Assembly (NCBI GenBank): GCA_021785515.1
Contig: JAJYEX010000002.1
Location: forward strand, 93,328-157,327
DNA length: 64,000 bases
Origin: Pseudomonadota bacterium
GTDB taxonomy: Bacteria; Pseudomonadota; Gammaproteobacteria; Acidiferrobacterales; UBA6901
Direction: 5' to 3'
Below the pieces are notes generated by a model. The model saw only the letters and a list, made by a program, of their open reading frames with translations. It was not told the origin of the DNA and ran no database searches. Of the stretch, positions 45,429 through 58,757 are shown piece by piece (the stretch's first letter is position 1; every line of letters begins with the position of its first letter). A program made the position numbers and the translations under genes.

Positions 45429-45574
45429 TTGGTGGTGGTACCGGCCACTCTGCCAATTTTTTGCCAATGGGATCCCGGGCAATGCAGATTTATGCAGGTT
45501 TTTACAGGACTGGAAAACCGTTGGGCGTCGCAAAGCATTGATTTAATTAACAGTGTAGGGCATCAGTCGTCCAA

Positions 45575-45709
45575 CGAACCAGGCAGGTCAGAAGTTCGAA
45601 TCTCTCCGGGCGCGCCAGTTTTTCAAACACTTACATTTCTTCGCTGACACAAGAACCAAGCGGTCGTGCCAGATTTGTGTCACGCTTCCTGCTCCTGATG
45701 CGCTACCAC
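45575..45709 (+). repeat. direct repeat copy 2: tRNA-Arg 3' fragment, spacer and integrase 3' end (att scar)
   Basis: CGAACCAGGCAGGTCAGAAGTTCGAATCTCTCCGGGCGCGCCA followed by GTTTTTCAAACACTTACAT..CCTGATGCGCTACCAC. No 5' half of a tRNA, so it is not a gene. Confidence 0.85.
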
Positions 45710-46278
45710 CTGTCCCTGGCGAATTCATAGTCACGCTGCCACCGGTGTCTGAAACAGCCCATGGCAATGTGCCACCCAGTCAAACGCGAGGGCGTATTGT
45801 CCAAAAATTGCATCGCCAAGATTCACGCTGCCTGACGGTAGTAATAATGAGCATTCCGCCGAGGCGCTCGCGCCGGTGGACGGTGTCACGGCACAGAGGA
45901 GGGGCCACGGTAATGGGTTTCAGCAGGTGATTTTCCATCCCTTGGTGATTTCGTTCGGTATGATAGTGGGCCATGTACTCTTTAACGGCGTGCCGCAGTG
46001 AGGCTTCCCCCAGGAATATCATTCAGTTCAGGCACTCCTCTTTAATCGAGCGCACGAACCGATCGGCGTAGGCGTTGAGATTGGGGGATCGTGGGGGCAG
46101 ACGGATGATTTTGATGCCCTTGTCCTCGATCAGGCGGCGGAAGGCAGCGGAATATTTTGGCATCCCGATCCAGGGTGAGAATTCGTTTTCCGTTGAGGGG
46201 GAACCCATCCGTCGCGTCGGTGAGGTTGCGCGCCACCTGCATCATCCAGCGTTCATTCAATTCGCCAGGGAGATCGTC
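45710..46278 (-). mobile_element. internally deleted, defective rve-type (IS481/IS3-superfamily-like) insertion sequence with both terminal inverted repeats
   Basis: The outer end CTGTCCCTGGCGAATTC (45710) and the inverted copy GAATTCGCCAGGGAGAT (46262-46278) bracket only the C-terminal half of the transposase. The 46262-46278 end is fused directly to codon region ..[11 protein letters not shown]. Confidence 0.7.
45823..46260 (-). pseudogene. DDE (rve) transposase, C-terminal half with one in-frame TGA and at least two frameshifts
   Basis: [24 protein letters not shown].. / ..[61 protein letters not shown]. The family terminus HYYYRQAA-stop is readable only in a shifted frame, ending near 45823. 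Confidence 0.75.
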
Positions 46279-46305
46279 TTGTTGTGGTTGTTTCCTTAAT
46301 GTATA

Positions 46306-46334
46306 TTGACAATTATCTATTGTCAGATTAGGGT
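46306..46334 (+). promoter_or_regulatory. candidate higBA promoter with overlapping inverted repeat
   Basis: TTGACA (46306-46311), 17-nt spacer, TAGGGT (46329-46334). Inverted repeat TGACAAT-TATCT-ATTGTCA (46307-46325) spans the -35/spacer. Confidence 0.5.
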
Positions 46335-46360
46335 AAGCAAAGGCAGGGAGGGCAGGCGCT

Positions 46361-46639
46361 TTGATTCAGAGCTTCCGGCACAAGGGACTGAAACGGCTCT
46401 ATGAGAAGGACATCGCCAAGGGCCTCTCTGCGGATATAGAGCCGAAGATTGCGCGGGTACTGGCCCGCCTCGACGTAGCGGCTAGACCGGAGATGATGAA
46501 CCTGCCGGGTTTGAACCTGCATCCCCTGAAAGGAGAGCTGAGAGGATTCTGGGCTGTGTGGGTCACGGGCAACTGGCGGATCATCTTCCGCTTCGATGGA
46601 AGCCACGCATGTGATGTTGATCTGGTCGATTATCACTGA
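46361..46639 (+). CDS. higB: HigB toxin (RelE/ParE superfamily, plasmid-maintenance killer type)
   Basis: TTG start; [16 protein letters not shown]....I....KI.R.L..L.......M..PG..LH.LKG.L.G.W.V.V.GNWRI.F.F....A..VDLVDYH. Confidence 0.88.
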
Positions 46640-46658
46640 CCGGGATGGAGGTAGTGAA

Positions 46659-46976
46659 ATGACGATGAAAAACCCGCCGCACCCCGGATTGTCGGTGCGC
46701 CATGACTGCCTGGAGCCGCTCAGGCTCTCCGTTACGAAAGGGGCGGAGGTTCTCGGCGTAAAGCGCCAGACGCTCAACAACCTTGTGAACGGCAAGGCGG
46801 GAATTTCACCAGAAATGGCGATCCGCCTCGATAAGGCCTTCGGCGGCACGGCCGAAGGCTGGCTTGCGCTCCAGACAGCGTTCGATCTGGCGCAAGCACG
46901 CAAGAATGAGAAGTCGATCATCGTAAAACGGTACAAAGGCGCCTCTGGGGCAGAACATCAAGGCGCTTGGAAATAA
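46659..46976 (+). CDS. higA: HigA antitoxin (XRE-family HTH)
   Basis: ATG 46659 after GGAGGT; NPPHPGL.....[42 protein letters not shown]. Confidence 0.88.
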
Positions 46977-47201
46977 ATCACGATGTGGGTGGCTAATTTC
47001 TAGTTGAGGTCAAGCGAAAATACAAATCAACAGTCGGGACTTATCTACTAGTTGCCGTAGTTTCCGGAGTAGTGGCCATCATTTTCTTGCGGGACTTTTG
47101 CGGGGATTAGTTGTGCATGGTTCTGCAAAGTCCTGCAAAATGCGCAACGGGCGTCCGGTGTTGGTTGAAAAAAAACAACCGGTTACCAATTCAAGAACTA
47201 A

Positions 47202-47246
47202 CTACGAACCAGGTGGTCGGGAGTTCGAATCTCTCCGGGCGTGCCA
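47202..47246 (+). repeat. direct repeat copy 3: tRNA-Arg anticodon-to-3'-end fragment (att scar)
   Basis: CTACGAACCAGGTGGTCGGGAGTTCGAATCTCTCCGGGCGTGCCA; one mismatch to 41965-42009; no 5' half. Confidence 0.85.
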
Positions 47247-47291
47247 TATAATCAATAGCGTAGCCACATTATCGCCCGCAGAGAATGGGGC

Positions 47292-47969
47292 ATGGAGTCA
47301 CTATCAAATCCGGTCGAGATGGTGCGCAGATCGAAACTCCCATCCGGCCGGGATCGCCGCCTTGTGAGTGACGAGGAATCCCGCCTTGTCGCCGCCGCGC
47401 AGAATTATGGCGGTGAGATAGTGCGCATCATCCCTTGGGCCATTGAGACGGCCATGCGCCGTGGCGAGATCGCAGCCATGCGCTGGGATCACGTGAACCG
47501 AACGGTGCGCGTGCTGCTCATTTTAAAGTTTAAGACCGACACGCTCCGACGGGTACCCTTGTCATTAAAGGTTCTGGCAGCCTTGGATGAGTAACCCCAA
47601 CGCATCGATGGGCGGGTGCGGTCTGTCGAGCCGGAGTCCATGAGCCAGGCGTTTGAGCGCATTGGTGATCGTGCCCGGGAAGCATACGAGAGCGAATGCA
47701 GGAGGAGCGGCGTCAAGCCGGATGAGAAGATGTTCAAGGATCTGCGGTTCCACGATCTGCGGCACGAAGCAACCTCGCGGCTCTTCGAGAGAGGACGGAA
47801 CCCCATGGAGGTCTCGAGCATCACTGGCCACAAGACGCTTCAGATGTTAAAACAGGCACGGTGTTCGAGATCGTTCCATAGCGCAAAGAGATTTAATGGC
47901 GGTGATAACTTTCCGGATTTGATCCACAAGGACAGGACCCAGATGCATCGTCAGACGCAACTTGAGTAG
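47292..47969 (+). pseudogene. tyrosine recombinase (island integrase): N-terminally truncated, in-frame TAA at 47595, C-terminus scrambled before the catalytic Tyr
   Basis: AIETAMRRGEIAAMRWDHV....R.L.I..KT...R.VPLS, then a stop. It continues in the same frame with ..SQAFERI.., [35 protein letters not shown], after which similarity ends (no RYTHL). Confidence 0.8.
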
Positions 47970-48119: not shown

Positions 48120-48149
48120 TTGACAGTCAATCGGAATCAAAGATATTAT
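48120..48149 (+). promoter_or_regulatory. candidate sigma70 promoter for the copper-efflux operon
   Basis: TTGACA (48120-48125), 18-nt spacer, TATTAT (48144-48149); a near-consensus pair in a GC-rich genome, 42 nt upstream of ATG 48191. Confidence 0.55.
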
Positions 48150-48190: not shown

Positions 48191-48607
48191 ATGACCTCGG
48201 CGCTTGCCATGCTGCGGCGGTTACGGCACAACCCGATTGTCCTGTTCGGCGGTTTGGCGCTTGTTTTCGTTATTTTGCTCCAGGTCTGTTTCACACCCAA
48301 AGCGGCAGCGTCTGCAGCATCGATGTCGGCCATGACCGCAGACTGCGGGCCTGCCGGTGTGCCTCAGGGCCATCAAGTGCCTGCGTGCTGCCAGCCTGGA
48401 CATTTAGTGCTTTGCGCCGGTCAATCCCTCGCCATGGACACCAGCCCGGGATATGCGTCGAGCAGCGCGCTGGCAATTCTTCCCGTTACTGCGGTCCGCA
48501 TTGTTCGTTTACGGCAGCAGAGTAGGGGTCGGTCACCCGAACCCGCTGATTTTCGAACTCCTTCCTCCCAAGCGTTGTATCTGCGCCACGGCCGTTTCCT
48601 GATTTAA
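48191..48607 (+). CDS. membrane-anchored Cys/His/Met-rich protein in the CzcI / DUF2946 position (family assignment tentative)
   Basis: ATG 48191 gives MTSALAMLRRLRHNPIVLFGGLALVFVILLQVCF (one TM). It continues SMSAMTADCGPAGVPQGHQVPACCQPGHLVLC. First gene of the cus cluster. Start and reality of this ORF are less certain than for its neighbours. Confidence 0.45.
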   Translation: MTSALAMLRRLRHNPIVLFGGLALVFVILLQVCFTPKAAASAASMSAMTADCGPAGVPQGHQVPACCQPGHLVLCAGQSLAMDTSPGYASSSALAILPVTAVRIVRLRQQSRGRSPEPADFRTPSSQALYLRHGRFLI

Positions 48608-48674: not shown

Positions 48675-49979
48675 ATGTCGTCTCGATACGTTTGTCGTAC
48701 GGTTGTGCTCGTGGCCGCACTGGCCACGAGTGTTCCGGTGTGGGCGCGGATCCTGCGGTCTTCCGGTCTCATTCCCTCGCCACTAACCCTGCACAATGCG
48801 CTACGGCTGGCGCTTGCTCGCTCCCCGGCACTGGCTCAGGCACGCGCCGAGATCGAGGCGGGCCAAAGTGAGGAGAAATATCGCAGCCAGCTACCGGATC
48901 CCGTGCTTACGCTGGGTGCTCAGAACCTTCCCGCGGATACGCTCGCGTTGAATCAAAGCGGCATGTCCATGCTGGGCATCGGTCTGTCCCAGAAATTCCC
49001 GCCGCCCGGAAAGCTCGGATTGATCCACCGGCAACTGGAACGGGACACCGCTGTGCTGCGCTACCGCATGCAGAATCTCAAGGCCGGGGTCGTGCGCGCG
49101 GTACGCCGCGCTTGGCTGGCGCTTTATTACGACGACCACGCGCTCCACATCCTCCATGAAAACCAGGCATTGTATCGCCGGATTGAACAGGTTGCGCTTT
49201 CCCGCTACCGGGCAGGTCGAGGACAAGCCGCCGACGTTCTCAAAGCACGGCTGGCGGCTGAGGACCTGATCGACCAAGAAGACGCGTGGCGCTCCAAACG
49301 TCGCCAGGCGCAAAGCCGCCTGGCTCAATTGCTCGATCTGCCGTCGTTTGACGGCATCACTGTCGCACAGACATTCCCCCGCTTGCCTGCGATTCCGCCG
49401 CTACAAACATTGCTGACAAATCTGAGTCACCATCCCGTCGTAGTCGCCCAGGACAACGTCATCCGTGCCGCACAATTCGATGTTGCCGCAGCGCGCCGGG
49501 ATTTTTATCCGTCCTACGAGATCAGTGCCGGATATGCACATCGTGCTACCCCCGGGGTTCGCGCGCCCAACCTAGTATCCGTTGGCGTAAGCCTGAGCCT
49601 GCCGCTATTCCCCGGCGAGCGCCAGGACGCTCGCCTGCACCGCCGGGAGGCGCAAACACAGGCCGCGCGCGATCAGCGCGACGACCTGCTGTTGAGCCTC
49701 CGCCGGCAGGCACAATCACGCTATGCGGAGTATGACGCCCTCACGCGGCGCGTCCAGTTACTGCAGCAAAGGTTGGTACCGGATGCCAGAGAGACGGTGA
49801 CAGTCAGCCTCTCGGCCTATCGCGCGGGCGCGCTGTCATTGACCGAGGTACTGCACGCACAGCGCGCCGTACTCAACCAGACGCTTCGACTGTGGGCCTT
49901 AAAGGCCGACCTGGCAAGCGTTATTGCCGACCTGGACTACCTGGCAACATCTACCGAGGGGCATTTCCATGCGTACTGA
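48675..49979 (+). CDS. cusC: outer-membrane efflux protein (TolC family, CusC/CzcC type)
   Basis: Signal peptide, LTLHNALRLALARSPAL.QA, two OEP repeats; 434 aa. Confidence 0.88.
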   Translation: MSSRYVCRTVVLVAALATSVPVWARILRSSGLIPSPLTLHNALRLALARSPALAQARAEIEAGQSEEKYRSQLPDPVLTLGAQNLPADTLALNQSGMSMLGIGLSQKFPPPGKLGLIHRQLERDTAVLRYRMQNLKAGVVRAVRRAWLALYYDDHALHILHENQALYRRIEQVALSRYRAGRGQAADVLKARLAAEDLIDQEDAWRSKRRQAQSRLAQLLDLPSFDGITVAQTFPRLPAIPPLQTLLTNLSHHPVVVAQDNVIRAAQFDVAAARRDFYPSYEISAGYAHRATPGVRAPNLVSVGVSLSLPLFPGERQDARLHRREAQTQAARDQRDDLLLSLRRQAQSRYAEYDALTRRVQLLQQRLVPDARETVTVSLSAYRAGALSLTEVLHAQRAVLNQTLRLWALKADLASVIADLDYLATSTEGHFHAY

Positions 49980-51294
49980 GAAAGTGGTGATCATGCTGGG
50001 TATCTTTATCGCCGGTGTGGCTGCCGGAGGCGCCGGGCTCTGGCTGCTCAGACGCATGGATCCGCGGCCAGCGCAAACAGTCGGTGTAAACCGGCTTCCT
50101 CCTGCCACAGGACGCAAAATCCTGTACTACCGCGCTCCCATGAACCCGGCCGTTCACTCGCCGGTGCCGATGAAAGACAGCATGGGCATGCCGTATATCC
50201 CGGTTTATGCCGGAACGGCATCCAAGCCGTCGCAGCCGGGGTTGATTCGCATTGACCCCCGATTGGTGCAGAACTTCGGCGTGCAGACAGCGCCGGTGGC
50301 CGAGGGCCCGTTGAGCCGCGCGATCGATGCGCCCGGTACGGTGGCGGTCGATCAGCGCTTGGTCAGCACGCTCAATCCGCGGGTCAGCGGATGGCTGGTT
50401 CGCCTGGTTCCGCGTGCGGTAGGCGACACGGTTCATCGCGGCGAGGCGGTGGCCTCGCTTTACTCGCCGCAGCTCTATCAGGCGGAACGTGACTATCTGG
50501 TGCTACGTGCCGGGCGGTCCGACGGCCCAGACGGCGCACACCCGCTGCGCCAGGCGGCGGCGGAGCGGCTGCGCCTGCTCGGGCTGAGCAACACACAGGT
50601 GCGCCGGCTGGCGGAAGAGGGCAGGGCGCAGTACACCACGCCGCTGCTGGCCGCCCATGGTGGCATCGTGACCCGGCTCGGGGCGCGCGAAGGCGGTTAC
50701 GTAACACCGGCGACCTCGCTGCTGACGGTTACCGGCCTGCGCCGCGTGTGGGTAAACGTGGCGCTCTACCCAGACCAGGCGCCCTGGGTGAGGCTGGGCG
50801 ATGCTGCGACGCTGCGTCTGCCTTCCGTTCCAGGACGCGTGTGGCACGGCCGCATCGCCTTCGTCTATCCCACCGTGAACGACCGCAGCCGCACGGTGAC
50901 GGCCAGGCTGAGTTTTCCGAATCCGGACCGTGTGCTGCGCCCAGGTCTGTACGCCAGCGTCCGCATCGACGCTCATCCGATTGCGAGGACCCTCTATGTC
51001 GCGCGCTCGGCGGTGTTGCATGACGGTCGCGACCGGGCTTACGTGTTCATCGCCCGGGGCCGGGGCCACTTTCGGCTGGTGGCGGTGCGCACCGGCATCG
51101 AGACGCCCGGGCGGGCCCAGATCCTCGCCGGACTGCAGCACGGAGAAATGGTGGTGACCCACGGGCAATTCATGCTGGATGCGGATGCGCAGATTCACGG
51201 CATCGCGGCACGCACGAATGATCCCACGCCAGACGCAGCGCAGAAAGGCGCCCGCGCCGTGCAGAGTGCGGCCATGCCGGGAGGCAGCCCATGA
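49969..51294 (+). CDS. cusB: heavy-metal efflux membrane-fusion protein (CusB type)
   Basis: ATG 49969 (MRTEKVVIMLGIFIAG..) overlaps the cusC end by 11 nt; YYRAPMNPAVHSPVPMKDSMGMPYIPVY Met-rich N-terminal region as in CusB; HlyD-like barrel. Confidence 0.88.
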   Translation: MRTEKVVIMLGIFIAGVAAGGAGLWLLRRMDPRPAQTVGVNRLPPATGRKILYYRAPMNPAVHSPVPMKDSMGMPYIPVYAGTASKPSQPGLIRIDPRLVQNFGVQTAPVAEGPLSRAIDAPGTVAVDQRLVSTLNPRVSGWLVRLVPRAVGDTVHRGEAVASLYSPQLYQAERDYLVLRAGRSDGPDGAHPLRQAAAERLRLLGLSNTQVRRLAEEGRAQYTTPLLAAHGGIVTRLGAREGGYVTPATSLLTVTGLRRVWVNVALYPDQAPWVRLGDAATLRLPSVPGRVWHGRIAFVYPTVNDRSRTVTARLSFPNPDRVLRPGLYASVRIDAHPIARTLYVARSAVLHDGRDRAYVFIARGRGHFRLVAVRTGIETPGRAQILAGLQHGEMVVTHGQFMLDADAQIHGIAARTNDPTPDAAQKGARAVQSAAMPGGSP

Positions 51295-54200
51295 TCGCGC
51301 GCCTCATTGCCTGGTCTGTGCGCAACCGCTTTCTGGTGCTCGCGGGCGCCGCGGCTGTGATCCTGTGGGGCATATACGCCCTGGACCGCATCCCGCTCGA
51401 CGCCCTGCCCAACCTGTCGGACGTCCAGGTCATCGTCAAGGCCGATTATGCGGGACAGTCCCCCCAGGTCGTGCAGAACCAGGTGACCTATCCCCTCACT
51501 ACGGTCCTGCTGGCAGTACCCGGAACACGCACGGTGCGCGGCTATTCCATGTTCGGTGAGTCCCTGGTGTACGTGATTTTCCAGGACAACACCGACCTCT
51601 ATGCGGCGCGCAACCTGGTGCAACAGTACCTCAATCAAGTCCAGGGAAAGCTTCCCCGCGGAGTAACCCCCACGCTTGGAGCTCCGGCCACCGGCCTTGG
51701 GTGGGTGTATGAGTATGCCCTCCTTGATTCCAAGGGCGGCTATGACCTGGGCGCCCTCACTAGTCTGCAGAACTGGTTTCTGCGCTATCAGCTGGAGCAG
51801 ATCCCCGGCGTGGCGAGCGTTGCAACGGTGGGTGGCATGAACCGCGAATATCAGGTGGACGTGCGGCCCAGCCGGCTGCTCGCCTATGGCATCCCTTTGG
51901 CGCGCGTGGCAAACATGCTGCGCGCCGCGAACGGCGAAACGAGCGGCGGTGTGGTGGATACCGGTGGGGGGTTTTCCTACCTGGTACAGACCGGCAGCCG
52001 TGGCTACATCCACTCCCGGCGGGATTTGCGCGATATTCCGCTGGACATGGGTCCGAGCGGATTTCCCTTGCGACTCGGCGACATCGCCCGAATCCACACG
52101 GGGCCAGGCCTGCGTTACGGGGTGGCGGATCTCAACGGCAAAGGACAGGTCGTGGGTGGAGTCGTGATCGCCCGTACCAACGCCAATGCCATGCAAGTGA
52201 TCCGGAACGTACGCGCACGAATCAGAGCGCTGCGCAAATCGCTGCCGGCGGGTGTACGCATCGTCACCACCTATGACCGCTCCCATCTGATTGAGCGCAC
52301 CATCTCAACGTTGCGCTCCAAGCTGGTGGAAGAATCCTTGGTAGTGGCCCTGGTTTGCGTGGTGTTCCTGTTCCGCTTGCGCTCGGCGCTGGTGGCTATC
52401 GTCATGCTCCCGGTCGGCATCCTGGCAGCATTGGCCATCATGCAGGCCCAGGGGCTGGGTGCCAATATCATGTCGTTGGGCGGTATTGCCATTGCCATCG
52501 GGGCCATGGTGGACGGCGCCGTCGTGATGATCGAGAACATGCACAAGCACTTGGAGCTGCAAGGTCCCGGGGCGGATCCTTGGCTGGTCGCGCAGCTCTC
52601 GGCCGAGGAAGTCGGTCCATCGTTGTTCTTTTCGCTGCTGATCATCGCCGTTTCTTTCGTGCCCATCTTCGCGCTGCATGGCGAGGAAGGTCGTCTCTTC
52701 CGGCCACTGGCGTTTACCAAGACCTACGCAATGGCCATGGCCGCCGCGCTGTCGATTACCCTCGTGCCGGTGTTCATGGGCTACCTGATCCGCGGCCGCG
52801 TCGTTCCCGAGGACAGAAATCCGCTCAACCGCTGGTTGCACCGTGCCTATGAGCCGCTCGCCCGCTGGGTGTTGCGCCACCGCGCCATGACGCTCGCCGC
52901 CTCGGGCGCGCTGCTGCTGAGCGCGTTCTATCCAGCTGGCCGGATGGGCAGCGAATTCATGCCTCCCTTGTACGAGGGCAACCTGATGTACATGCCGATT
53001 ACCGTGCTGCCCAACGTTTCGGTCGGAGAGGCGGCCTATCTTCTGCAGCAGACCGACAAGGTCATCGCCCGTTTCCCCGAGGTGAAAGAGGTGTTCGGCA
53101 AGGCCGGGCGGGCAAACACCTCCACGGACCCCGCGCCCCTGTCGATGTTCGAGACCATCATCCGGCTAAAGCCGCGCGCCGCCTGGCCGCGTGGAACGAC
53201 CTTGAGCAAGCTCAAGAAGTCCCTGAATCAAGCGGTACGGACGCCGGCGCTCGCCAACGACTGGACCATGCCCATCGCCGCACGTGTGGACATGCTCTCC
53301 ACCGGCATCCGAACACCGGTTGGCATCAAGGTCTACGGCCCGAGTCTTGCCAGTATCCAGCGCCTGGCGATACAAATCGAAAACGCCGTCAAGCACATAC
53401 CCGGCACGCGCTCCGCCTATGCGGCGCGTATCGACCAGGGGCGTTACATCGTGGTGCACGTGAATCGCGCGGCCGCCGCCCGCTACGGCCTCAGTGTCGC
53501 CGACGTGGACCGTCTGGTCAGCACCGCGATCGCGGGTAAGACAGTCACTACAACCGTACAGGGATATGCCCGCTACGCAGTGGTCGTGCGCTACCCCCGG
53601 CACCTGCGGCAATCGCTCTCCGCCCTGGAGGACAGTCTGATCGTCACCCCAGACGGAGAACGCGTGCCGCTGCGCGCGATCGCGCGAGTGGCACGTGAGA
53701 ACGGACCCACGGAAATCGACACGCAGGGTGGCCAGATGTATGACATCGTCACCATCGATACGGGCAACGTCTCCCTTGCCCAGTATGTCGCGCAGGCCAA
53801 GACGGCCATTGCCAGACAGGTGACCATACCGCCCGGTTACACCGTTCGATGGTCAGGCCAATACCGCTTCTACCGGGAAACGCTCGCCCAGATCACATTC
53901 ATCGTGCCAGTCGTGGTGTTCGTCATTTTTCTGCTGCTGTATCTAAACTTCCGGCGGATAGGGGAACCTCTCATCATCCTGCTGACCTTGCCGTTCGGTC
54001 TGGTGGGCGGCATCTGGTTCCTGTATGTGCTCGGTTACAAGTTCTCGCTGGCCGTCGCGGTCGGGTTCATCGCGGCTGCAGGCGTGGCCACCGAGTTTGG
54101 GGTCGTCCTGCTCCTCTATCTCAACCAGGCGCTGGACCGGCGTCGGGCGGAGGGCCGTCTGAGCACGTGGGAGGACGTGCGCGACGCGGTGCTTGATGGC

Positions 54201-54485
54201 ACTACGCGCCGGCTGCGACCCATCAACATGACGGCGATGGTGATCATCGTCGGCCTGCTGCCGATTTTTCTGAGCCGCGGTGCTGGCGCCGACGTGATGA
54301 AGCGAATCGCTGCTCCGTTCATGGGGGCCATGATCACCGCCCCGGCGCTCAGCCTACTGGTTATCCCTGTGGTGTACGCGCTCTGGCAGTGGCGGCGCGT
54401 AGATAAGGAAATGTCTGCCGGGCGCGAGCAGAAAATACTTAAAGAAAATGCAAAACCCGCGCTGGATCCAACAAGGAGCCCTTGA
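51291..54485 (+). CDS. cusA: heavy-metal efflux RND pump (CusA/CzcA family)
   Basis: 1064 aa; ATGA overlap with cusB; MIARLIAWSVRNRFLVL, 12-TM RND architecture, GGIAIAIGAMVDGAVVMIEN. Confidence 0.93.
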   Translation: MIARLIAWSVRNRFLVLAGAAAVILWGIYALDRIPLDALPNLSDVQVIVKADYAGQSPQVVQNQVTYPLTTVLLAVPGTRTVRGYSMFGESLVYVIFQDNTDLYAARNLVQQYLNQVQGKLPRGVTPTLGAPATGLGWVYEYALLDSKGGYDLGALTSLQNWFLRYQLEQIPGVASVATVGGMNREYQVDVRPSRLLAYGIPLARVANMLRAANGETSGGVVDTGGGFSYLVQTGSRGYIHSRRDLRDIPLDMGPSGFPLRLGDIARIHTGPGLRYGVADLNGKGQVVGGVVIARTNANAMQVIRNVRARIRALRKSLPAGVRIVTTYDRSHLIERTISTLRSKLVEESLVVALVCVVFLFRLRSALVAIVMLPVGILAALAIMQAQGLGANIMSLGGIAIAIGAMVDGAVVMIENMHKHLELQGPGADPWLVAQLSAEEVGPSLFFSLLIIAVSFVPIFALHGEEGRLFRPLAFTKTYAMAMAAALSITLVPVFMGYLIRGRVVPEDRNPLNRWLHRAYEPLARWVLRHRAMTLAASGALLLSAFYPAGRMGSEFMPPLYEGNLMYMPITVLPNVSVGEAAYLLQQTDKVIARFPEVKEVFGKAGRANTSTDPAPLSMFETIIRLKPRAAWPRGTTLSKLKKSLNQAVRTPALANDWTMPIAARVDMLSTGIRTPVGIKVYGPSLASIQRLAIQIENAVKHIPGTRSAYAARIDQGRYIVVHVNRAAAARYGLSVADVDRLVSTAIAGKTVTTTVQGYARYAVVVRYPRHLRQSLSALEDSLIVTPDGERVPLRAIARVARENGPTEIDTQGGQMYDIVTIDTGNVSLAQYVAQAKTAIARQVTIPPGYTVRWSGQYRFYRETLAQITFIVPVVVFVIFLLLYLNFRRIGEPLIILLTLPFGLVGGIWFLYVLGYKFSLAVAVGFIAAAGVATEFGVVLLLYLNQALDRRRAEGRLSTWEDVRDAVLDGTTRRLRPINMTAMVIIVGLLPIFLSRGAGADVMKRIAAPFMGAMITAPALSLLVIPVVYALWQWRRVDKEMSAGREQKILKENAKPALDPTRSP

Positions 54486-54865
54486 TGAAAAGTTATTATG
54501 CTGTCGCCACCTTGATTTGCACGATTACCGGTTCCCTGGCCGCAAGCGCCGCTACAGTGCGCATGCAAGGCATGGGGAACATGCCCATGGGAGGTAAGGG
54601 CGGCCCCAACACAACAAGTACGTCGAGCACAGTAAACCGTTACATGGCGCATGGACGGATCAACCACGTGAACAAGACCGCGGGGGAGGTCAACATCACG
54701 CATGGGCCTATCTCGGCGCTGGGCTGGCCGGGGATGACTATGAGCTTCCCAGTGCTGGACAAGACGGCATTGGCCCGCCTCAGGCCTGGAGAGCCAGTGG
54801 ACTTTGATCTGATCCGCAGGCCCAACGGCCAATATGCGATCAGCGGCATCGCTCCGGCCGACTAG
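54485..54865 (+). CDS. cusF: periplasmic Cu(I)/Ag(I) chaperone CusF
   Basis: TGATG overlap with cusA; signal peptide; VNITHGPISALGWPGMTMSF carries the CusF His/Trp/Met/Met ligand pattern; extra N-terminal MQGMGNMPMGG Met-rich stretch. Confidence 0.88.
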   Translation: MKSYYAVATLICTITGSLAASAATVRMQGMGNMPMGGKGGPNTTSTSSTVNRYMAHGRINHVNKTAGEVNITHGPISALGWPGMTMSFPVLDKTALARLRPGEPVDFDLIRRPNGQYAISGIAPAD

Positions 54866-54993: not shown

Positions 54994-55209
54994 ATGAAAT
55001 TCCGTATCCGGACTCTGTTATCACCTCTCGTGGTCGTACTGGCCGCCGGTTTCGCGCAGGCGACGGCTGCTGCGTCACCGCATGTCGGAGTGGACCCGAC
55101 CATCAGGCAAATGGAGGCATGCTTTCGCGAACATGGAAAGCTGATGCCTAAACCCGCGGTCACGAACATTTACGACTGCTGGCGGGCGCATGGCTATCTG
55201 ATGCGGTAG
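54994..55209 (+). CDS. small secreted protein (71 aa precursor), unknown family
   Basis: ATG 54994 after GGAGA. Signal peptide MKFRIRTLLSPLVVVLAAGFAQA. The mature part, about 48 aa, has 2 Cys, 3 His and 3 Met. ORF-track start 54868 is unlikely. Confidence 0.55.
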   Translation: MKFRIRTLLSPLVVVLAAGFAQATAAASPHVGVDPTIRQMEACFREHGKLMPKPAVTNIYDCWRAHGYLMR

Positions 55210-55330
55210 AAACTGTATGGGCGAAACGCGCCGGTTGCGGCTTCCTTACAGAGGAGCCGGTGCGCTTTCTGGCCTGTCGGGCGGGCAGCCGCCCCGCCCG
55301 ACGTACACTTTGGTTCCCTGGAGACCCACA

Positions 55331-56020
55331 ATGAAGATGAATTGGACGATGACCCGGCGCCGCCTGATAGCACCGGCAACCGGACTGGCTGTCCTGCTTT
55401 TTGCCACAGTGTCGGCATACCCTGACGCAAGAGTGCATGGAAGCCCGGAGAGGGGACATGCCATTGTTTCCCGATCGTGTGCTGCCTGCCACGGAGCGGA
55501 TGGAAACAGCACGAATCCGCTGTTTCCCAAACTTTCAGGCCAGAATCCCGACTATCTTTATGGCCAGCTGCGTGCATTCAAGGCTGGCGGACGGCAATCC
55601 CGCATCATGGCGCCGATCGCGACGGATATGTCGGATACGGACATGGCTGATGTTGCAAGTTACTTTGCGCGCCAGTCCATCCGGGCAGACCAGGTCCGCG
55701 ATAAAGCCGGGGTTGCCGCAGGTAGGCACATCTTCTATGACGGCGCAAATCATGGAGCCACACCGGCCTGCGCCATGTGCCACGGCGCCTCCGCAGGCGG
55801 CATGTCCATGATGGGAGGCATGATGCATGGAATGCCGATGATGCGGGGCATGATGGCCGCTATCCCGAAACTCAATGGGCAGCATGCCGCTTATCTCGTG
55901 AGGCAGCTGCAGGAGTTCGCATCCGGCAGGCGGCAGAGCATGATGATGAATTCGGTCGCGGCATCGCTGACTCATGAAGAAATGCAGAACGTTTCCGACT
56001 ATCTCGCGGACACGCCCTGA
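55331..56020 (+). CDS. diheme cytochrome c4-like protein with Met-rich insertion in the second heme domain
   Basis: ATG 55331 after GGAGA; signal peptide; heme motifs CAACH and CAMCH; c4-like PKL.GQ....L..QL..F..G.R repeats. The 18-aa segment MSMMGGMMHGMPMMRGMM (55802-55855) directly follows the second CxxCH. Confidence 0.85.
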   Translation: MKMNWTMTRRRLIAPATGLAVLLFATVSAYPDARVHGSPERGHAIVSRSCAACHGADGNSTNPLFPKLSGQNPDYLYGQLRAFKAGGRQSRIMAPIATDMSDTDMADVASYFARQSIRADQVRDKAGVAAGRHIFYDGANHGATPACAMCHGASAGGMSMMGGMMHGMPMMRGMMAAIPKLNGQHAAYLVRQLQEFASGRRQSMMMNSVAASLTHEEMQNVSDYLADTP

Positions 56021-56112: not shown

Positions 56113-56194
56113 CCGGCAGGGACAACCAGAAAATCGAGCAATGCGGGTGCGATGTTCCGGTTCTCGCTTAGTTGTTCCGGTGTTTTGCCAGTGG

Positions 56195-56227
56195 ATGGCG
56201 AATTATTGTTCACGTCACCACTGGTTC
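56195..56227 (+). repeat. degenerate solo copy D of the rve-IS terminal sequence
   Basis: ATGGCGAATTATTGTTCACGTCACCACTGGTTC, about 70% match to copies A/B; it abuts the IS3-type inverted repeat. Confidence 0.45.
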
Positions 56228-56233: not shown

Positions 56234-56575
56234 TGACCTGAGTCCCTTTTTTTAGGTCAGTCTGTAACTGGACTAAAGTGGCGCTCATCAGTCCTCCACA
56301 GGCGGTCCGCAGGACCGATAAGGAGAGCAGGACCATGAAGCGTTCACGGTACTCGGACGAGCAGATTGCCTACGCGCTGCGCCAGGCAGAAAGCGGCAGC
56401 GCAGTAGCCGATATCTGCCTGCAGCTCGGCGTCTAGCGAGGCGACCTTCTACGTCTGGAAGAAGAAATACGCCAACCTGGGCTCGACAGAATTGCGCGAG
56501 CTGCGTGTGCTGTGCGAAGAGAACGCGAAGTTAAAGCGCCTGGTGGCCGATCTCATTCTTAGATAAGCCCAATCG
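56234..56575 (+). mobile_element. IS3-family (IS407-group-like) left end with orfA remnant, truncated
   Basis: TGACCTGAGTCCC.. terminal repeat. orfA starts at ATG 56335: MKRSRYSDEQIAYALRQAESGSAVADICLQLGV-TAG, then a frame shift to EATFYVWKKKYANLGSTELRELRVLCEENAKLKRLVADLIL. No orfB follows. Confidence 0.7.
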
Positions 56576-56828
56576 GTCCATGGGCAATAACCCGGGTGAG
56601 CGGCACCGGGCGCGATTCAGAACCAGAAGTTGCTGCTTCAGAAGCAGGTTCTCCGCCACCACCGACCGCAGACCGCCAGGGCCAAAGAGGCGCGCGAAGG
56701 TCGTTACGGCATGAACCAATAGAAGCAGCAGCGATCGCATGGTGCCGATGCTACTGATCGATCGTACCAACGCAAGACTGCTAATTCGTCACCGGTTATG
56801 ATAGCGAATATCAATTCGCTAGGGAGAG
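56575..56828 (-). mobile_element. 5' part of a second copy of the rve-type IS (terminal repeat plus transposase N-terminus), truncated
   Basis: Inverted terminal sequence CAATTCGCTAGGGAGAG at 56812-56828. The reverse-strand ORF MRSLLLLLVHAVTTFARLFGPGGLRSVVAENLLLKQQLLVLNRAR.....L...DRL is the conserved N-terminus of this transposase family. Similarity stops at the IS3 remnant. Confidence 0.65.
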
Positions 56829-56949
56829 ATGGATCGGGTATCAGTGCCAATGCATGTTGTTACATGGGTCCGACATGCAGCACACAAGCATAAGAATCGG
56901 TAATTGCTGCGCGTAGTTGCTTCGCTCAGAATGGTGAAGAAGCAGTCAC

Positions 56950-57330
56950 TCAAGCGGCGTTTGCTTTGCGCGTTGGCCGGACCAGGGACTCGGCGGGAAT
57001 ACCCAGTCTTCGATGCAGCTCCCAGATCATCCTTAGTGTCAGCGGCCGCTTGCGGCTGAGAATCTCATACACGCGGTTCGTGCGGCCGATCATAGGCTCC
57101 AGGTCTTTCACGATTAGACCCTTGCTTTCCATGGCGTACTTGATTGCCTCGACCGGATCGGGCAGGTCCAGCGGGTAGTGCTTGGCTTCATAGGCTTCCA
57201 CCAACGTGACCAGCACTTCAAGGCGGTCACCCTTGGCCGTGCGCGGCTTGGCCTGCATGAGCGCCTCGATTTCCTTGAGCGCCGCCTGATAATCGGCTTT
57301 CGTTTTGACGGGTTTGATGTCCATTGCCAT
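56950..57330 (-). CDS. higA: HigA-2 type antitoxin (N-terminal extension plus C-terminal HTH)
   Basis: IKPVKTKADYQAALKEIEALM......GDRLEVLVTLVEAYEAKHYP, then the HTH GRTNRVYEILSRKRPLTLRMIWELHRRLGIPAESL. Confidence 0.85.
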   Translation of the reverse strand: MAMDIKPVKTKADYQAALKEIEALMQAKPRTAKGDRLEVLVTLVEAYEAKHYPLDLPDPVEAIKYAMESKGLIVKDLEPMIGRTNRVYEILSRKRPLTLRMIWELHRRLGIPAESLVRPTRKANAA

Positions 57331-57336
57331 GGATCC

Positions 57337-57639
57337 TCAGATTGTCTGTACATCGATCCGATCGTACTGCACATGCGTTCCGATGAACCGGACATAGACC
57401 ACGCGATAGCTATAGTTGATCCAGACCACGATTCGGTACTTGTTGCCCGCGATATTGAACACGGCCCGCCCATTCTTGAGAATACTGGCGGTTCGGACAT
57501 CGCGTTTCAGCTCCGCCGGCGATTTCCAGTCTGCTTTCAGCGTATGCCGGTACCACGCGAGGATGGGTTCCTTGGCGTCCAGACGGGAGGCATTCTGCTC
57601 CCAGAAGGACTTCAATGTACGTAACGCGATCACTCGCAT
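57337..57639 (-). CDS. higB: HigB-2 type toxin (mRNA interferase, HigB_toxin family)
   Basis: MRVIALRTLKSFWE.......AKEPILAWY......DWKSPAELK......ASILKNGRAVFNI.GNKYR..V.I.Y....V.VRFIGTH..YD.IDV. Confidence 0.85.
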   Translation of the reverse strand: MRVIALRTLKSFWEQNASRLDAKEPILAWYRHTLKADWKSPAELKRDVRTASILKNGRAVFNIAGNKYRIVVWINYSYRVVYVRFIGTHVQYDRIDVQTI

Positions 57640-57649
57640 TATGGAGAGT

Positions 57650-57670
57650 GTAGTCCCATTATGGGACTAC
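57650..57670. promoter_or_regulatory. perfect palindrome upstream of higBA-2 (candidate operator)
   Basis: GTAGTCCCA-TTA-TGGGACTAC, 9-nt arms, starting 11 nt upstream of the higB-2 start codon. Confidence 0.55.
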
Positions 57671-57746
57671 CGCAAGTTTGGGGAGCTCCAGCGCGTTGGG
57701 ACTGGTGGTAAATGGGGGAGATAGGGATGGTATCATGCCCTGCCGG

Positions 57747-57997: not shown

Positions 57998-58112
57998 CCA
58001 GATGCATTGTCGGAAGCGCTTTGAATAGATGAATGAATTGATCAGGCTGGATGGGTCAGCGTTCGATGCAAAGGAATGAAGTTATGGGGTCATTTTAGCG
58101 TGCAAATCAACA
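57998..58112 (+). repeat. 115-nt direct repeat, right copy
   Basis: Gap-free alignment to 47939-48053 (about 83% identity by eye). Its last bases supply the stop codon of the truncated PLP-enzyme gene. Confidence 0.8.
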
Positions 58113-58757
58113 GCCGGCGGTGATGTCGCTGTGTCCTCCCAGGTACTTGGTGGCGCTGTGAACGACCAGATCTGCTCCGAGCTCCAAAGGCCGCTGGTTC
58201 ACCGGTGAGGCGAAGGTATTGTCCACGACAAGAAGTGCCCCATGGCGATGGGCAATATCCGCCACGGCCGCAATGTCTATAATTTCAAGAGCCGGATTGC
58301 TCGGTGTTTCCAGAAACACGAGCCGCGGACCGGATTCCAGCAGAGGCTCGAGCCGGTCGAGCTCCCGCCCAAGTATCAGGTGTGTTTCGATGCCGAGCTG
58401 GGGCAACTGGGCGTCAAGCAGCTCCAGGGTTCCGCCGTAGGCATCACCGATGCACACGATTCCCTTTCTGCCATACGCGAAAAACACGGACGTTTCGGCG
58501 GCCATGCCGGAACAGAACACCCACGCAGATTCAGCCTCCTCAATGCTCGCGAGCTGCGCTTCCAGAGACTGAATGGTCGGGTTGAGGCCGTAACGCGTAT
58601 AGAGGCTTCCCGGTTTGCGTCCTTCCACCACGTCGAGCAGCGCCGCCGTGGAGGCAAAGCGAAAGGTGGTGGTGTTATAGACTGGCATGCTAGGGGAGCC
58701 GTGAACGTCAGTGGTCTCCCCTGCGTGGATGGTGCGGGTCGCGAGTCCTTGTGTCAT
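58107..58757 (-). pseudogene. Cys/Met-metabolism PLP-dependent enzyme (cystathionine gamma-synthase / O-acylhomoserine sulfhydrylase family), 3'-truncated
   Basis: TIHAG, YTRYGNPT-like LYTRYGLNPT, CSGMAA, VVDNTFASP, HSATKYLGGHSDITAGC-stop. The ORF ends 12 codons after the PLP Lys, whereas family members continue for about 170 aa. The break coincides with the repeat boundary. Confidence 0.8.

What the first reader, a model, noticed from the sequence alone, without database searches (positions are those of the whole stretch)
55331..56020. Diheme cytochrome c4 with a methionine-rich insert, encoded at the tail of the cus operon
The protein has two c4-type domains (CAACH and CAMCH). Directly after the second heme motif, where c4 proteins normally have a short Gly-rich loop, it carries MSMMGGMMHGMPMMRGMM (55802-55855): 10 Met and 1 His in 18 residues. 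Such Met/His tracts are the hallmark Cu(I)-binding sequences of CusF, CopA/PcoA and CopB-type proteins. A redox protein with a Cu(I)-binding loop beside its heme, co-oriented with cusCBAF, suggests electron transfer coupled to periplasmic copper handling. That could mean Cu(I) oxidation or sensing without a multicopper oxidase. From memory, the cop cluster of Cupriavidus metallidurans includes a cytochrome-c-like gene (copJ) of unknown role. I know of no characterised Met-loop c4.
Basis: partly seen in the sequence, partly recalled or inferred. Interest (0 to 1): 0.68.

Follow-up and report, generated by a model that had tools for sequence, protein, structure and literature searches.

The report
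Methionine-loop cytochrome c4 in copper-efflux operon
The last gene of a copper/silver efflux operon encodes a two-heme electron carrier with a floppy methionine-rich loop beside its second heme; this loop marks a whole, apparently undescribed branch of cytochrome c4 that sits in metal-resistance gene clusters and may link metal handling to respiration.

Summary
ORF 55331-56020 encodes a secreted diheme cytochrome c4 (CAACH, CAMCH, both axial Met kept). Between the heme-2 His and the conserved Pro it has 27 residues instead of the canonical 11-12, including MSMMGGMMHGMPMMRGMM.

It is the last gene of cusC-cusB-cusA-cusF-orf71-c4 on a degraded island in an uncultured Acidiferrobacterales chromosome.

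The loop is not unique. All 116 Met-loop sequences sampled form one c4 clade, with loops of 17-53 aa (30% Met, 30% Gly), always after heme 2. Met also sits inside the heme-2 motif in 80% of members against 0% of canonical c4.

Metal transporters or regulators lie within 9 kb of 16/27 Met-loop loci against 1/73 canonical c4 loci. The closest relatives keep the link to cusF/RND or copA/csoR. More distant members sit beside Zn/Cd/Pb-type ATPases, Czc-like pumps, DUF302, and SHOCT and LTXXQ-like proteins that carry the same MMG repeats.

Function is inferred only. Most likely the loop binds Cu(I)/Ag(I) beside a high-potential heme and couples copper redox state to the respiratory chain. Rivals are a metal-proof spare c4 and a Cu(II) reductase feeding Cus.

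I found no paper describing this branch. I rate it a new variant of a known kind.

The parts
48120..48149 (+). sigma-70-like promoter candidate (TTGACA-18-TATTAT) upstream of the operon
   Evidence: 11 of 12 consensus matches. It is the only + strand promoter-like site between 47500 and 56600. A consensus match only.
48191..48607 (+). 138-aa ORF with one hydrophobic helix and a Cys/His-rich tail; no family
   Evidence: no NCBIfam or Pfam hit. Position between the promoter-like site and cusC.
48675..49979 (+). outer-membrane factor (CusC-like)
   Evidence: Pfam OEP, E 3e-41
49969..51294 (+). membrane fusion protein, CusB-like (start uncertain: 49924 or 49969)
   Evidence: Pfam HlyD_D23 and HlyD_D4 of CusB; NCBIfam best hit PRK09783 CusB, below cut-off
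51291..54485 (+). CusA-type heavy-metal RND pump
   Evidence: TIGR00914, 1096 bits. Best PDB match is E. coli CusA, with the Met triad contexts YMP / PLSM / VDML conserved.
54485..54865 (+). CusF periplasmic Cu(I)/Ag(I) chaperone
   Evidence: Pfam CusF_Ec, E 3e-22. ITHGPI...GWPGMTM keeps the H, W, M, M ligands (by inspection of the translation printed).
54994..55209 (+). orf71: small secreted Cys/His/Met protein, conserved between cusF and the c4 gene
   Evidence: No Pfam or NCBIfam hit. A 54%-identical homologue sits in the same position in L088, and one is also present in L087.
55223..55305 (+). two GC-rich stem-loops in the orf71-c4 spacer, not followed by a T-run
   Evidence: fold z -2.0 (window) and -2.9 (L087); both stems are alignable with L087
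55331..56020 (+). Met-loop cytochrome c4 (229 aa precursor)
55331..55417 (+). predicted signal peptide (residues 1-29, ...VSA|YP)
   Evidence: Sequence inspection; AF2 pLDDT below 60 over residues 1-30. No signal-peptide predictor was run.
55478..55492 (+). heme-1 binding motif CAACH (C50-H54); axial Met93 at 55607-55609
   Evidence: C50, C53, H54 and M93 invariant in A1
55769..55783 (+). heme-2 binding motif CAMCH (C147-H151); axial Met206 at 55946-55948
   Evidence: M149 is Met in 80% of the clade and 0% of canonical c4.
55784..55864 (+). inserted loop, residues 152-178 (Met-rich core 55802-55855)
   Evidence: 27 aa against 10-12 in most canonical c4. pLDDT about 55 with no secondary structure.
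56184..56202 (+). weak terminator-like hairpin after the c4 gene
   Evidence: 7-bp stem, T-rich tail
56337..56440 (+). IS3-family transposase orfA remnant, interrupted by a stop
   Evidence: sequence; the corresponding gene in L001, the same sequence as the window, carries Pfam HTH_Tnp_1 (weak)
47292..47969 (+). tyrosine integrase split into two fragments, at the upstream edge of the island
   Evidence: Pfam Phage_integrase on both fragments

Best explanation
The gene encodes an accessory periplasmic diheme cytochrome c4 dedicated to metal stress. It is made as the last product of, or immediately after, the cusCBAF-orf71 operon.

A flexible Met/Gly-rich loop is anchored between the proximal His of heme 2 and the conserved Pro that contacts that His. 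An extra Met lies inside the CAMCH motif. Together they form a thioether-rich site that captures Cu(I), and probably Ag(I), within electron-transfer distance of a high-potential His/Met heme.

The most likely chemistry is oxidation of loop-bound Cu(I) to the less toxic Cu(II). The electron would pass from heme 2 to heme 1 and on to a terminal oxidase, as canonical c4 does with cbb3 oxidase. That would make it a heme-based counterpart of the Met-rich multicopper oxidases CueO/PcoA.

Shown: the c4 fold, the insertion, that it defines a clade, and the genomic linkage to metal export. Inferred: metal binding, the direction of electron flow, and the partner oxidase.
For: - c4 identity. Two CXXCH motifs, invariant axial Met93 and Met206, pLDDT above 90 outside the loop, and Foldseek best hits to c4, including c4 within the bc1-cbb3 supercomplex 8smr.
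- Met enrichment is confined to heme 2. This covers the loop (Met 30%, Gly 30%, median three MM pairs) and M149 in CAMCH (80% against 0%). Heme 1 is ordinary.
- The loop defines a single clade. All 116 Met-loop sequences fall on one side of one split in a tree built from 160 non-loop columns, with only 2 exceptions.
- Context. Metal transporters or regulators lie within 9 kb in 16/27 Met-loop loci against 1/73 canonical loci, Fisher p 1.4e-10.
- In the window's own subclade the partners are Cu(I)-specific: cusF/CusA-type RND in three loci, and a P1B-1 CopA plus CsoR in Ferrovum.
- Neighbouring secreted or membrane proteins in other loci carry the same MMG repeats. This argues that the tract is a shared ligand-binding device and not random low complexity.
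- No multicopper oxidase is called in the Pfam-labelled contexts of 12 different Met-loop c4 proteins.
- Precedent. CopG is a periplasmic redox protein linked to cusCBA/copA and proposed to interconvert Cu(I) and Cu(II) (PMC7558416 section 6.5; PMC12428095 introduction).
- From general knowledge, not tested here: c4 hemes lie near +240 to +330 mV, above aqueous Cu(II)/Cu(I).
Against: - No experiment or structure with metal exists.
- The loop is predicted disordered, so its geometry relative to the heme edge is unknown.
- The repeat is MMG with few His or Asp. It is not the MxxM/MxM/His pattern of proven Cu(I) sites.
- Many clade members, those paired with DUF302, sit beside P1B-2 (Zn/Cd/Pb-type) ATPases, Czc-like RND pumps and a pbr-like locus. 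These metals are redox-inert, so Cu(I) oxidation cannot be read from context for the whole clade.
- Seven of 27 loci show no metal-linked gene. For five of these (L007, L008, L079, L098, L113) some or all neighbours were also scanned with Pfam or were unremarkable: L098 carries a multicopper-oxidase-like gene, and L007, L008 and L079 show no metal context.
- Thioether ligation stabilises Cu(I), which could make oxidation uphill.
- Spacers of 121-128 bp and two GC hairpins precede the gene, so co-transcription with cus is not established.
- No copper regulator lies in the island.
Confidence: 0.4

Rival explanations
1. A metal-proof spare c4. The protein simply carries electrons from bc1 to the terminal oxidase when the housekeeping c4 fails under metal stress. 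The Met/Gly loop and the Met in CAMCH act as a decoy. They keep soft metal ions away from the heme-binding cysteines during maturation and away from the heme edge afterwards. No metal redox chemistry is involved.
For: - c-type cytochrome assembly is a documented periplasmic target of copper (PMC4600104).
- The loop starts directly after the CXXCH thiols.
- The clade occurs with resistance systems for redox-inert Zn/Cd/Pb as well as for Cu. This fits a general stress-backup role better than a copper-specific enzyme.
- Canonical c4 genes exist in other Burkholderia and Paraburkholderia species sampled, the same genera as some Met-loop carriers, so the Met-loop form may be an accessory paralogue. 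Both forms were not shown in one genome.
Against: - Only heme 2 is protected. Heme 1 has an ordinary loop and CAACH.
- The idea does not explain why adjacent non-cytochrome proteins carry the same MMG repeats.
- It does not explain why the gene is placed inside efflux operons and not with ccm or oxidase genes.
Confidence: 0.25
2. A Cu(II) reductase that feeds the pump. Reduced c4 donates an electron to Cu(II). The Met loop stabilises the Cu(I) product and hands it to CusF/CusB, so that CusCBA, which exports only Cu(I)/Ag(I), can clear oxidised copper from an aerobic periplasm.
For: - The gene lies directly after cusF in three loci.
- CopG, another periplasmic redox protein linked to cus, is described as enhancing CusCBA efflux by reducing Cu(II) to Cu(I) (PMC12428095 introduction, citing Hausrath 2020).
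- Thioether ligation raises the Cu(II)/Cu(I) potential, which favours reduction (general chemistry).
Against: - It would generate the more toxic Cu(I) in the periplasm.
- The Ferrovum and L120 homologues sit with CopA/CsoR and no Cus pump.
- There is no evidence for transfer to CusF.
- The direction of electron flow cannot be read from sequence.
Confidence: 0.15
3. A metal sponge or chaperone. The loop buffers Cu(I)/Ag(I) or other soft metals, as PcoE/SilE and Met-rich tails do. The hemes are irrelevant to resistance, or serve only as a redox sensor of occupancy.
For: - The loop is disordered, long and highly variable in length, 17-53 aa. This is typical of low-specificity binding tracts.
- The same repeats occur in neighbouring proteins that are not redox proteins.
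Against: - Both heme motifs and both axial Met are strictly conserved across the clade, so the redox function is under selection.
- The insertion site is fixed at heme 2 in every member.
Confidence: 0.12
4. Not metal-related. The Met/Gly loop is a partner-docking or merely tolerated low-complexity insertion in one c4 lineage. The gene hitch-hikes on mobile islands that happen to carry metal genes.
For: - Many loci are on transposons or islands: Tn3-family, IS110 and IS3 remnants and integrases.
- In B. vietnamiensis the gene lies near aioBA, where a c-type cytochrome is an expected electron acceptor.
- Distant members L007, L008 and L079 have no metal genes nearby.
Against: - Same-strand placement directly behind efflux genes recurs in unrelated arrangements and hosts.
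- Enrichment over canonical c4 is about 100-fold.
- The Met content is maintained over deep divergence (40% identity).
Confidence: 0.08

Closest known systems
Canonical cytochrome c4 (P. stutzeri 1ETP, P. aeruginosa 6Q2U/8SMR, N. gonorrhoeae 8UF3, A. ferrooxidans 1H1O)
   Same: Two class-I heme domains and His/Met ligation of both hemes. The fold matches (TM 0.80-0.90 normalised to the target; 29-35% identity). Same periplasmic location.
   Different: The loop after heme 2 is 27 aa, Met/Gly-rich and disordered, where canonical c4 has 11-12 aa. Met sits inside the CXXCH of heme 2. The gene lies in a metal-efflux operon and not in a housekeeping context.
Met-rich multicopper oxidases CueO / PcoA / CopA (cuprous oxidases)
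   Same: A Met-rich, partly disordered segment sits next to the electron-accepting redox centre of a periplasmic protein encoded with copper-resistance genes. The proposed logic is the same: bind Cu(I), then remove one electron. This rests on general knowledge and PMC7558416.
   Different: No cupredoxin domain and no copper centres (Pfam). The acceptor would be heme c. The electron sink would be the respiratory chain, not O2 reduced at a trinuclear cluster. The repeat type is MMG, not MxxM/His-rich.
CopG (periplasmic CxCC tetranuclear-copper protein linked to cusCBA/copA)
   Same: A periplasmic redox-active accessory protein genetically linked to Cus and CopA, proposed to interconvert Cu(I) and Cu(II) (PMC7558416 section 6.5; PMC12428095).
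   Different: The fold (thioredoxin-like) and cofactor are unrelated, and it has no heme.
CopM / CopJ cytochrome-c genes of cop clusters (P. putida copM; C. metallidurans and R. gelatinosus copJ)
   Same: Cytochrome-c-family or CXXC proteins encoded inside copper-resistance clusters and induced by copper. Their role is unknown (PMC3056050 Table 3; PMC4600104; PMC11647585).
   Different: R. gelatinosus CopJ is about 14 kDa and was described only as having a CXXC motif. No Met-rich loop has been reported for these proteins. Homology to the present protein was not tested because no sequences were at hand.
CinA, the copper-induced Met-rich azurin-like protein of P. putida (Quaranta et al. 2007, cited in PMC3056050)
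   Same: An electron-transfer protein that has acquired a Met-rich region and is under copper control.
   Different: It is a cupredoxin, not a cytochrome. It was not compared at sequence level here.

Membership tests
Cytochrome c4 (diheme class I) | Two CXXCH heme-attachment motifs in two tandem domains | tested here: met
   CAACH at residues 50-54 and CAMCH at 147-151; two Cytochrom_C stretches
Cytochrome c4 (diheme class I) | An axial Met ligand conserved in each domain | tested here: met
   M93 is Met in 100% of both sets. M206 is Met in 96% of Met-loop and 100% of canonical sequences.
Cytochrome c4 (diheme class I) | c4 fold and sequence similarity to solved c4 structures | tested here: met
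   phmmer E 5e-31 to 8e-22. AF2 pLDDT 84.9; Foldseek top five hits are all c4, TM 0.80-0.90.
Cytochrome c4 (diheme class I) | Periplasmic export | tested here: inconclusive
   The N-terminus looks like a Sec signal peptide by inspection (RRR, hydrophobic core, VSA|YP). No predictor was available.
Cytochrome c4 (diheme class I) | Covalent heme, high redox potentials, electron donation to a terminal oxidase | not testable with these tools
   Requires protein chemistry
cus operon (cusCFBA-type Cu(I)/Ag(I) efflux) accessory gene | Same strand, contiguous with a genuine CusA-type pump and CusF | tested here: met
   CusA Met triad and CusF ligands conserved
cus operon (cusCFBA-type Cu(I)/Ag(I) efflux) accessory gene | Linkage conserved in diverged relatives | tested here: met
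   cusF-orf71-c4 in L087 (74% identity). OEP-MFP-RND-cusF-orf72-SHOCT-c4 in L088-L090 (58% identity).
cus operon (cusCFBA-type Cu(I)/Ag(I) efflux) accessory gene | Co-transcription and copper induction | not testable with these tools
   No promoter-like or terminator-like consensus between cusF and c4. However, the spacers are 121-128 bp and contain GC hairpins.
Met-rich Cu(I)/Ag(I)-binding tracts (CusF, PcoA/CopA, CopB, CueO type) | Clustered Met (with or without His) in an exposed segment of a periplasmic protein | tested here: met
   10 Met and 1 His in 18 residues; loop pLDDT about 55
Met-rich Cu(I)/Ag(I)-binding tracts (CusF, PcoA/CopA, CopB, CueO type) | Recognised motif spacing (MxxM / MxM / MxxH) | tested here: inconclusive
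   The dominant pattern is MMG/GMM. Only 34 of 112 loops contain His. No reference motif library was available.
Met-rich Cu(I)/Ag(I)-binding tracts (CusF, PcoA/CopA, CopB, CueO type) | Measured Cu(I)/Ag(I) binding | not testable with these tools
   Requires purified protein
Multicopper (cuprous) oxidase | Cupredoxin domains with T1/T2/T3 copper ligands | tested here: not met
   Pfam finds only cytochrome c families. This is a functional analogy only.
CopM/CopJ cop-cluster cytochromes | Sequence homology to P. putida CopM or C. metallidurans CopJ | not tested

The most novel reading that the evidence does not exclude
The Met-loop c4 clade is a heme-based periplasmic cuprous oxidase that does not need O2 at its own active site. 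It strips an electron from Cu(I), and perhaps other soft reduced metal species, bound on its thioether loop and feeds that electron into the respiratory chain. It would thereby replace multicopper oxidases and let the cell detoxify, and even respire on, Cu(I) under microoxic or anoxic conditions. Together with the MMG-repeat LTXXQ-like, SHOCT and DUF302 neighbours it would form a previously unrecognised periplasmic metal-handling module.
Probability: 0.25. Interest if true: 0.85.

Novelty: new variant of a known kind. Interest (0 to 1): 0.62.

Why it matters
Periplasmic copper detoxification is currently explained by efflux (Cus), chaperones (CusF), multicopper oxidases and the poorly understood CopG/CopI/CopJ/CopM proteins. 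How copper redox state is controlled when O2-dependent oxidases cannot work remains an open question.

A widespread c4 lineage has a soft-metal-binding loop fixed at one heme, and it travels with Cus, CopA, Czc and Pbr-type systems. That offers a directly testable link between metal resistance and the respiratory chain.

The work also flags a recurrent, uncharacterised gene module: an MMG-repeat periplasmic protein, a small SHOCT membrane protein, the Met-loop c4 and DUF302. It gives DUF302 and these SHOCT proteins a concrete functional neighbourhood.

In practical terms, the loop is a simple sequence marker for separating accessory, metal-linked c4 genes from housekeeping c4 in annotation.

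Tried and rejected
1. Genome-collection scan with alignment A1. The automatic pattern CAxCHGx[DN]GN was too general. Of 80 loci, 76 were canonical c4. I reused them as the control set.
2. Plasmid tblastn. All hits were below 36% identity, so they were taken to be other diheme cytochromes and were not inspected for the loop. Uninformative about the Met-loop clade.
The reverse-complement form worked but gave only 20 loci.
4. A tandem-repeat origin of the loop was rejected. TRF finds nothing.
5. The idea that the protein is the arsenite-oxidase electron acceptor, prompted by B. vietnamiensis, was rejected as a general explanation. The same c4-DUF302 pair sits beside a P-type ATPase in another contig (L110). 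Only 2 of 27 loci have aioA.
6. A copper-only specificity for the clade was rejected after typing the neighbouring ATPases. Four are P1B-2 and two are P1B-1.
7. Literature searches for a Met-rich c4, DUF302 with copper, SHOCT with copper, and diheme with Met-rich found nothing describing this protein. The Hausrath 2020 CopG paper was not held.
10. I ran no further search on orf71.
Full report
**Observation**

The ORF at 55331-56020 (+) translates cleanly to 229 aa. It has a GGAG 7-10 nt upstream of the ATG and an N-terminus that looks like a Sec signal peptide (by inspection; no predictor was run). It contains CAACH (residues 50-54) and CAMCH (147-151).

Pfam reports two cytochrome c stretches. 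The best matches among solved structures are all cytochromes c4: 8uf3, 6q2u, 1etp and 1h1o, E 5e-31 to 8e-22. An AlphaFold2 model built on 37 homologues has mean pLDDT 84.9. It exceeds 90 everywhere except the signal peptide and residues 152-178, where pLDDT is about 55 with no secondary structure. Foldseek's top five hits are c4 structures, TM 0.80-0.90 on the target. They include c4 inside the P. aeruginosa bc1-cbb3 supercomplex.

It has 10 Met in 18 residues, binomial p about 3e-12 at 2.5% Met. No DNA tandem repeat underlies it.

**The tract is an insertion**

In a MAFFT alignment of 219 c4-type sequences, I measured the segment from the heme-2 His to the conserved Pro of P-x-L-x-G-Q. It is 10-12 aa (median 11) in most of the 96 canonical sequences. 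It is 27 aa here and 17-53 aa (median 29.5) in the Met-loop set.

In class I cytochromes c that Pro packs against the proximal His (established knowledge; Pro30 of mitochondrial cytochrome c). Both ends of the insert are therefore pinned at heme 2. This geometry is inferred by homology, not measured.

**Neighbourhood in the window**

Upstream on the same strand lie an OEP (48675-49979), a CusB-like adaptor (49969-51294), a CusA/CzcA-family RND pump (51291-54485; TIGR00914, 1096 bits) and CusF (54485-54865).

The pump aligns best with E. coli CusA and keeps the three Met of the Cu(I)/Ag(I) site. CusF keeps its H, W, M, M ligands (by inspection of its translation).

Between cusF and the c4 gene is a 71-aa secreted Cys/His/Met protein with no family.

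A strong promoter-like site (48120-48149) precedes a 138-aa unknown ORF and cusC. No promoter-like or terminator-like consensus lies between cusF and c4. However, the 121-bp spacer before c4 folds into two GC-rich hairpins that are conserved in the closest homologous locus.

The module is bounded by a split integrase (47292-47969), toxin-antitoxin genes and an IS3 remnant (from 56337). It lies downstream of tRNA-Ser and tRNA-Arg (41597-42009).

The rest of the window is chromosomal housekeeping (AlaRS, SecD, aspartokinase, glycogen genes). Its AlaRS is 82-88% identical to proteins from MAGs, those that carry a name being labelled Acidiferrobacterales. No copper regulator lies in the island.

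**The loop is a clade character, not a one-off**

The top 79 homologue clusters all carry a Met/Gly-rich loop after heme 2. Sources include Ferrovum, Burkholderia vietnamiensis, Paraburkholderia, Lysobacterales, Acidiferrobacterales and many metagenomes.

An exhaustive search of 1.84 billion representatives gave 162 hits at E <= 1e-30. Among the best 150, about 40 representatives of 50%-identity clusters are diheme proteins with the loop. It is always after motif 2 and never after motif 1.

A neighbour-joining tree on 160 non-loop columns puts all 116 Met-loop sequences on one side of a single split. Only two non-Met sequences join them: one with a degenerate 3-Met loop and one that has lost the loop.

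Loop composition is 30% Met and 30% Gly. MMG and GMM are the dominant tripeptides, the median is three MM pairs per loop, and His is present in 34 of 112 loops.

Met enrichment is local to heme 2. The residue inside the motif, CA-M-CH, is Met in 80% of the clade and 0% of canonical c4, while heme 1 is ordinary.

**Genomic context of the clade**

- Window: OEP-CusB-RND-CusF-orf71-c4.
- P0003 (74% identity): CusF-orf71-c4.
- P0008 (58%): OEP-MFP-RND-CusF-orf72-SHOCT-c4.
- Ferrovum P0007 (59%): CopA-type ATPase-SHOCT-transglutaminase-c4-CsoR.
- P0035: OEP-CzcB-PII-RND-cupredoxin-LTXXQ-SHOCT-c4-DUF302-ATPase.
- P0048: LTXXQ-like-SHOCT-c4, then a MerR fragment and CzcB-OEP-RND.
- P0046: OEP-CzcB-RND-PII-175aa-c4-DUF302, then ATPase, PAP2 and a cytochrome c-FTR1 fusion (pbr-like), on a Tn3-family element.
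- P0047: c4-DUF302, then an HMA ATPase and MerR.
- P0092: SHOCT, CopZ-like, CsoR, CopA, then 194aa-c4.
- P0036: MerR, ATPase, 188aa-SHOCT-c4-DUF302, with a PCuAC-like gene nearby.
- P0030 (B. vietnamiensis): Tn3 transposase-176aa-c4-DUF302, then aioBA and ars genes.
- P0024: MarR-EmrA-MFS-OEP-c4, which is not clearly metal-related.

None of these contexts contains a called multicopper oxidase.

For a quantitative comparison I used tblastn of reference neighbours against 27 non-redundant Met-loop loci with at least 3 kb of flank. These included 20 loci found by a context-blind DNA pattern. The control was 73 canonical c4 loci left over from the over-general genome scan. Results:

| Feature within 9 kb | Met-loop loci | Canonical c4 loci | Fisher p |
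|---|---|---|---|
| RND, CusF, P1B ATPase or CsoR | 16/27 | 1/73 | 1.4e-10 |
| DUF302 (where examined, the next gene downstream) | 12/27 | 0/73 | 2e-8 |
| Small membrane SHOCT protein (usually the gene upstream) | 11/27 | 0/73 | 9e-8 |

Two caveats apply. The reference proteins came from Met-loop loci, so the test shows that canonical c4 lacks these neighbours. It does not show what canonical c4 has instead. Also, seven Met-loop loci showed none of these genes. Among them, L007, L008 and L079 have no metal context on Pfam scanning of their neighbours, and L098 has a multicopper-oxidase-like gene. L108, missed by the first survey, proved to be RND-OEP-c4.

**Two further observations shape the interpretation**

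First, the proteins encoded just upstream of many Met-loop c4 genes carry the same MMG repeats. They include LTXXQ-like proteins, 175-188-aa secreted proteins with a GCCGGG motif, and the N-termini of the SHOCT proteins. This argues that the tract is a shared functional device. Binding of a common soft ligand is the simplest reading.

Those beside the c4-DUF302 pairs have CPC plus DxG(x)7N, the P1B-2 Zn/Cd/Pb type. Those beside the Ferrovum and L120 genes have CPC plus MxxSS, the P1B-1 Cu/Ag type.

The window's own subclade is therefore tied to Cu(I) systems. The clade as a whole is tied to metal resistance more broadly.

**Mechanism**

Shown:
- It is a c4 with both hemes and both axial Met under conservation.
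- It has a disordered Met/Gly loop, plus a motif Met, fixed at heme 2.
- The loop defines a clade.
- The gene is linked to metal export, with conserved placement behind cusF in the closest relatives.

Inferred:
- The loop binds Cu(I)/Ag(I).
- Being pinned at heme 2, the loop lets the bound ion exchange an electron with a high-potential heme.

I rank the explanations as follows:
- Cu(I) oxidation, 0.40. The electron passes through heme 1 to a terminal oxidase. This rests on analogy with the Met-rich segments over the T1 site of CueO/PcoA, on the absence of multicopper oxidases in these loci, and on the known role of c4 as donor to cbb3 oxidase.
- A metal-proof spare c4, 0.25. It is supported by copper's known attack on cytochrome c maturation (PMC4600104) and by the Zn/Cd/Pb contexts.
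- A Cu(II) reductase feeding CusF/CusCBA, 0.15. This is what has been proposed for CopG (PMC12428095).
- A pure sponge, 0.12.
- A hitch-hiker with no metal role, 0.08.

**Comparison with the known**

The protein is a member of the c4 family by every feature testable here. It is not a multicopper oxidase, and not demonstrably a homologue of CopM or CopJ. P. putida lists a "copM, cytochrome c family protein" next to copAB/copG (PMC3056050 Table 3). R. gelatinosus CopJ is a 14-kDa copper-induced CXXC protein (PMC4600104). C. metallidurans copJ is metal-induced (PMC11647585). None is reported to have a Met loop, and I could not compare sequences.

CopG (PMC7558416 section 6.5) and the Met-rich azurin CinA (cited in PMC3056050) are the nearest functional precedents.

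Full-text searches for a Met-rich or methionine-rich c4 or diheme cytochrome with copper returned nothing. The library lacks most subscription journals, so absence is not proof.

**Verdict**

The finding is best described as a new variant of a known kind: a metal-resistance-associated, Met-loop subfamily of cytochrome c4 with a recurrent set of uncharacterised partners. Function remains inferred. Interest 0.62.

Noticed in passing
window 54994-55209 (+); L087 1096-1311; L088 7308-7526: A 71-72-aa secreted protein with conserved Cys, His and Met residues (MEACF..HGKLM.KPAV.N.YDCWRAHGYLM). It sits between cusF and the c4 gene in three loci and is 54% identical between the window and L088. No Pfam or NCBIfam family. 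Possibly a small periplasmic metal-binding protein.
   Followed up: partly
window 48191-48607 (+), after the promoter-like site at 48120-48149: A 138-aa ORF with one hydrophobic helix and a Cys/His-rich segment (DCGPAGVPQGHQVPACCQPGHLVLC) directly upstream of cusC. It matches no family. It could be a leader or accessory protein of the operon.
   Followed up: partly
window 55223-55305 (+); L087 1325-1405: Two adjacent GC-rich stem-loops in the orf71-c4 spacer, conserved with the 74%-identical locus and without a T-run. They may be an intercistronic processing, stability or attenuation element.
   Followed up: partly
L094 7018-7898; L093 7123-7867; L121 5783-6972; L116 6408-6935; L003 9293-9823; L118 6742-6849: The genes directly upstream of other Met-loop c4 genes encode secreted or membrane proteins with the same MMG/GMMG repeats. 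These are LTXXQ-like proteins, 175-188-aa proteins with a GCCGGG motif, and small SHOCT membrane proteins with Met/Trp-rich N-termini.
   Followed up: partly
L003 10765-11151; L094 8784-9170; L116 7727-8113; L118 7721-8107; L121 7837-8223 and others: A 128-aa DUF302 protein lies near the c4 gene in 12 of 27 Met-loop c4 loci and in none of 73 canonical c4 loci. In every locus with called genes it is the next gene downstream. The DUF302 sequences are highly similar across very different contexts. The window's own locus lacks it.
   Followed up: partly
L116 8173-13233 (-): A pbr-like lead-resistance arrangement next to c4-DUF302 on a Tn3-family element: a P1B-2 ATPase, a PAP2 phosphatase (PbrB-like) and a cytochrome c-FTR1 fusion (PbrT-like).
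   Followed up: no
window 41597-42009, 44778-47969, 56337-57700: Island architecture around the cus-c4 module. It includes tRNA-Ser and tRNA-Arg, a LysR regulator, PIN and HigB/HTH toxin-antitoxin genes, an integrase split in two, and an IS3 orfA remnant with an in-frame stop. GC falls to about 0.55 at the edges against 0.60-0.66 elsewhere.
   Followed up: partly
window 58107-58757 (-): A Cys/Met-metabolism PLP enzyme ORF of only 216 aa, matching profile positions 2-210 of 381. It appears to be a truncated gene beside the island.
   Followed up: no
L091 5535-6566: The Ferrovum homologue is deposited as a 343-aa protein with an N-terminal HTH_3 hit. Other cluster members are 216-245 aa, so the long form is probably a mis-called start or a fusion artefact.
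   Followed up: no
L098 2985-4217 (-): A 410-aa multicopper-oxidase-like protein (Cu-oxidase_2/_3) and an IS110 transposase lie within 4 kb of a Met-loop c4. This is the only multicopper oxidase seen near any member.
   Followed up: no
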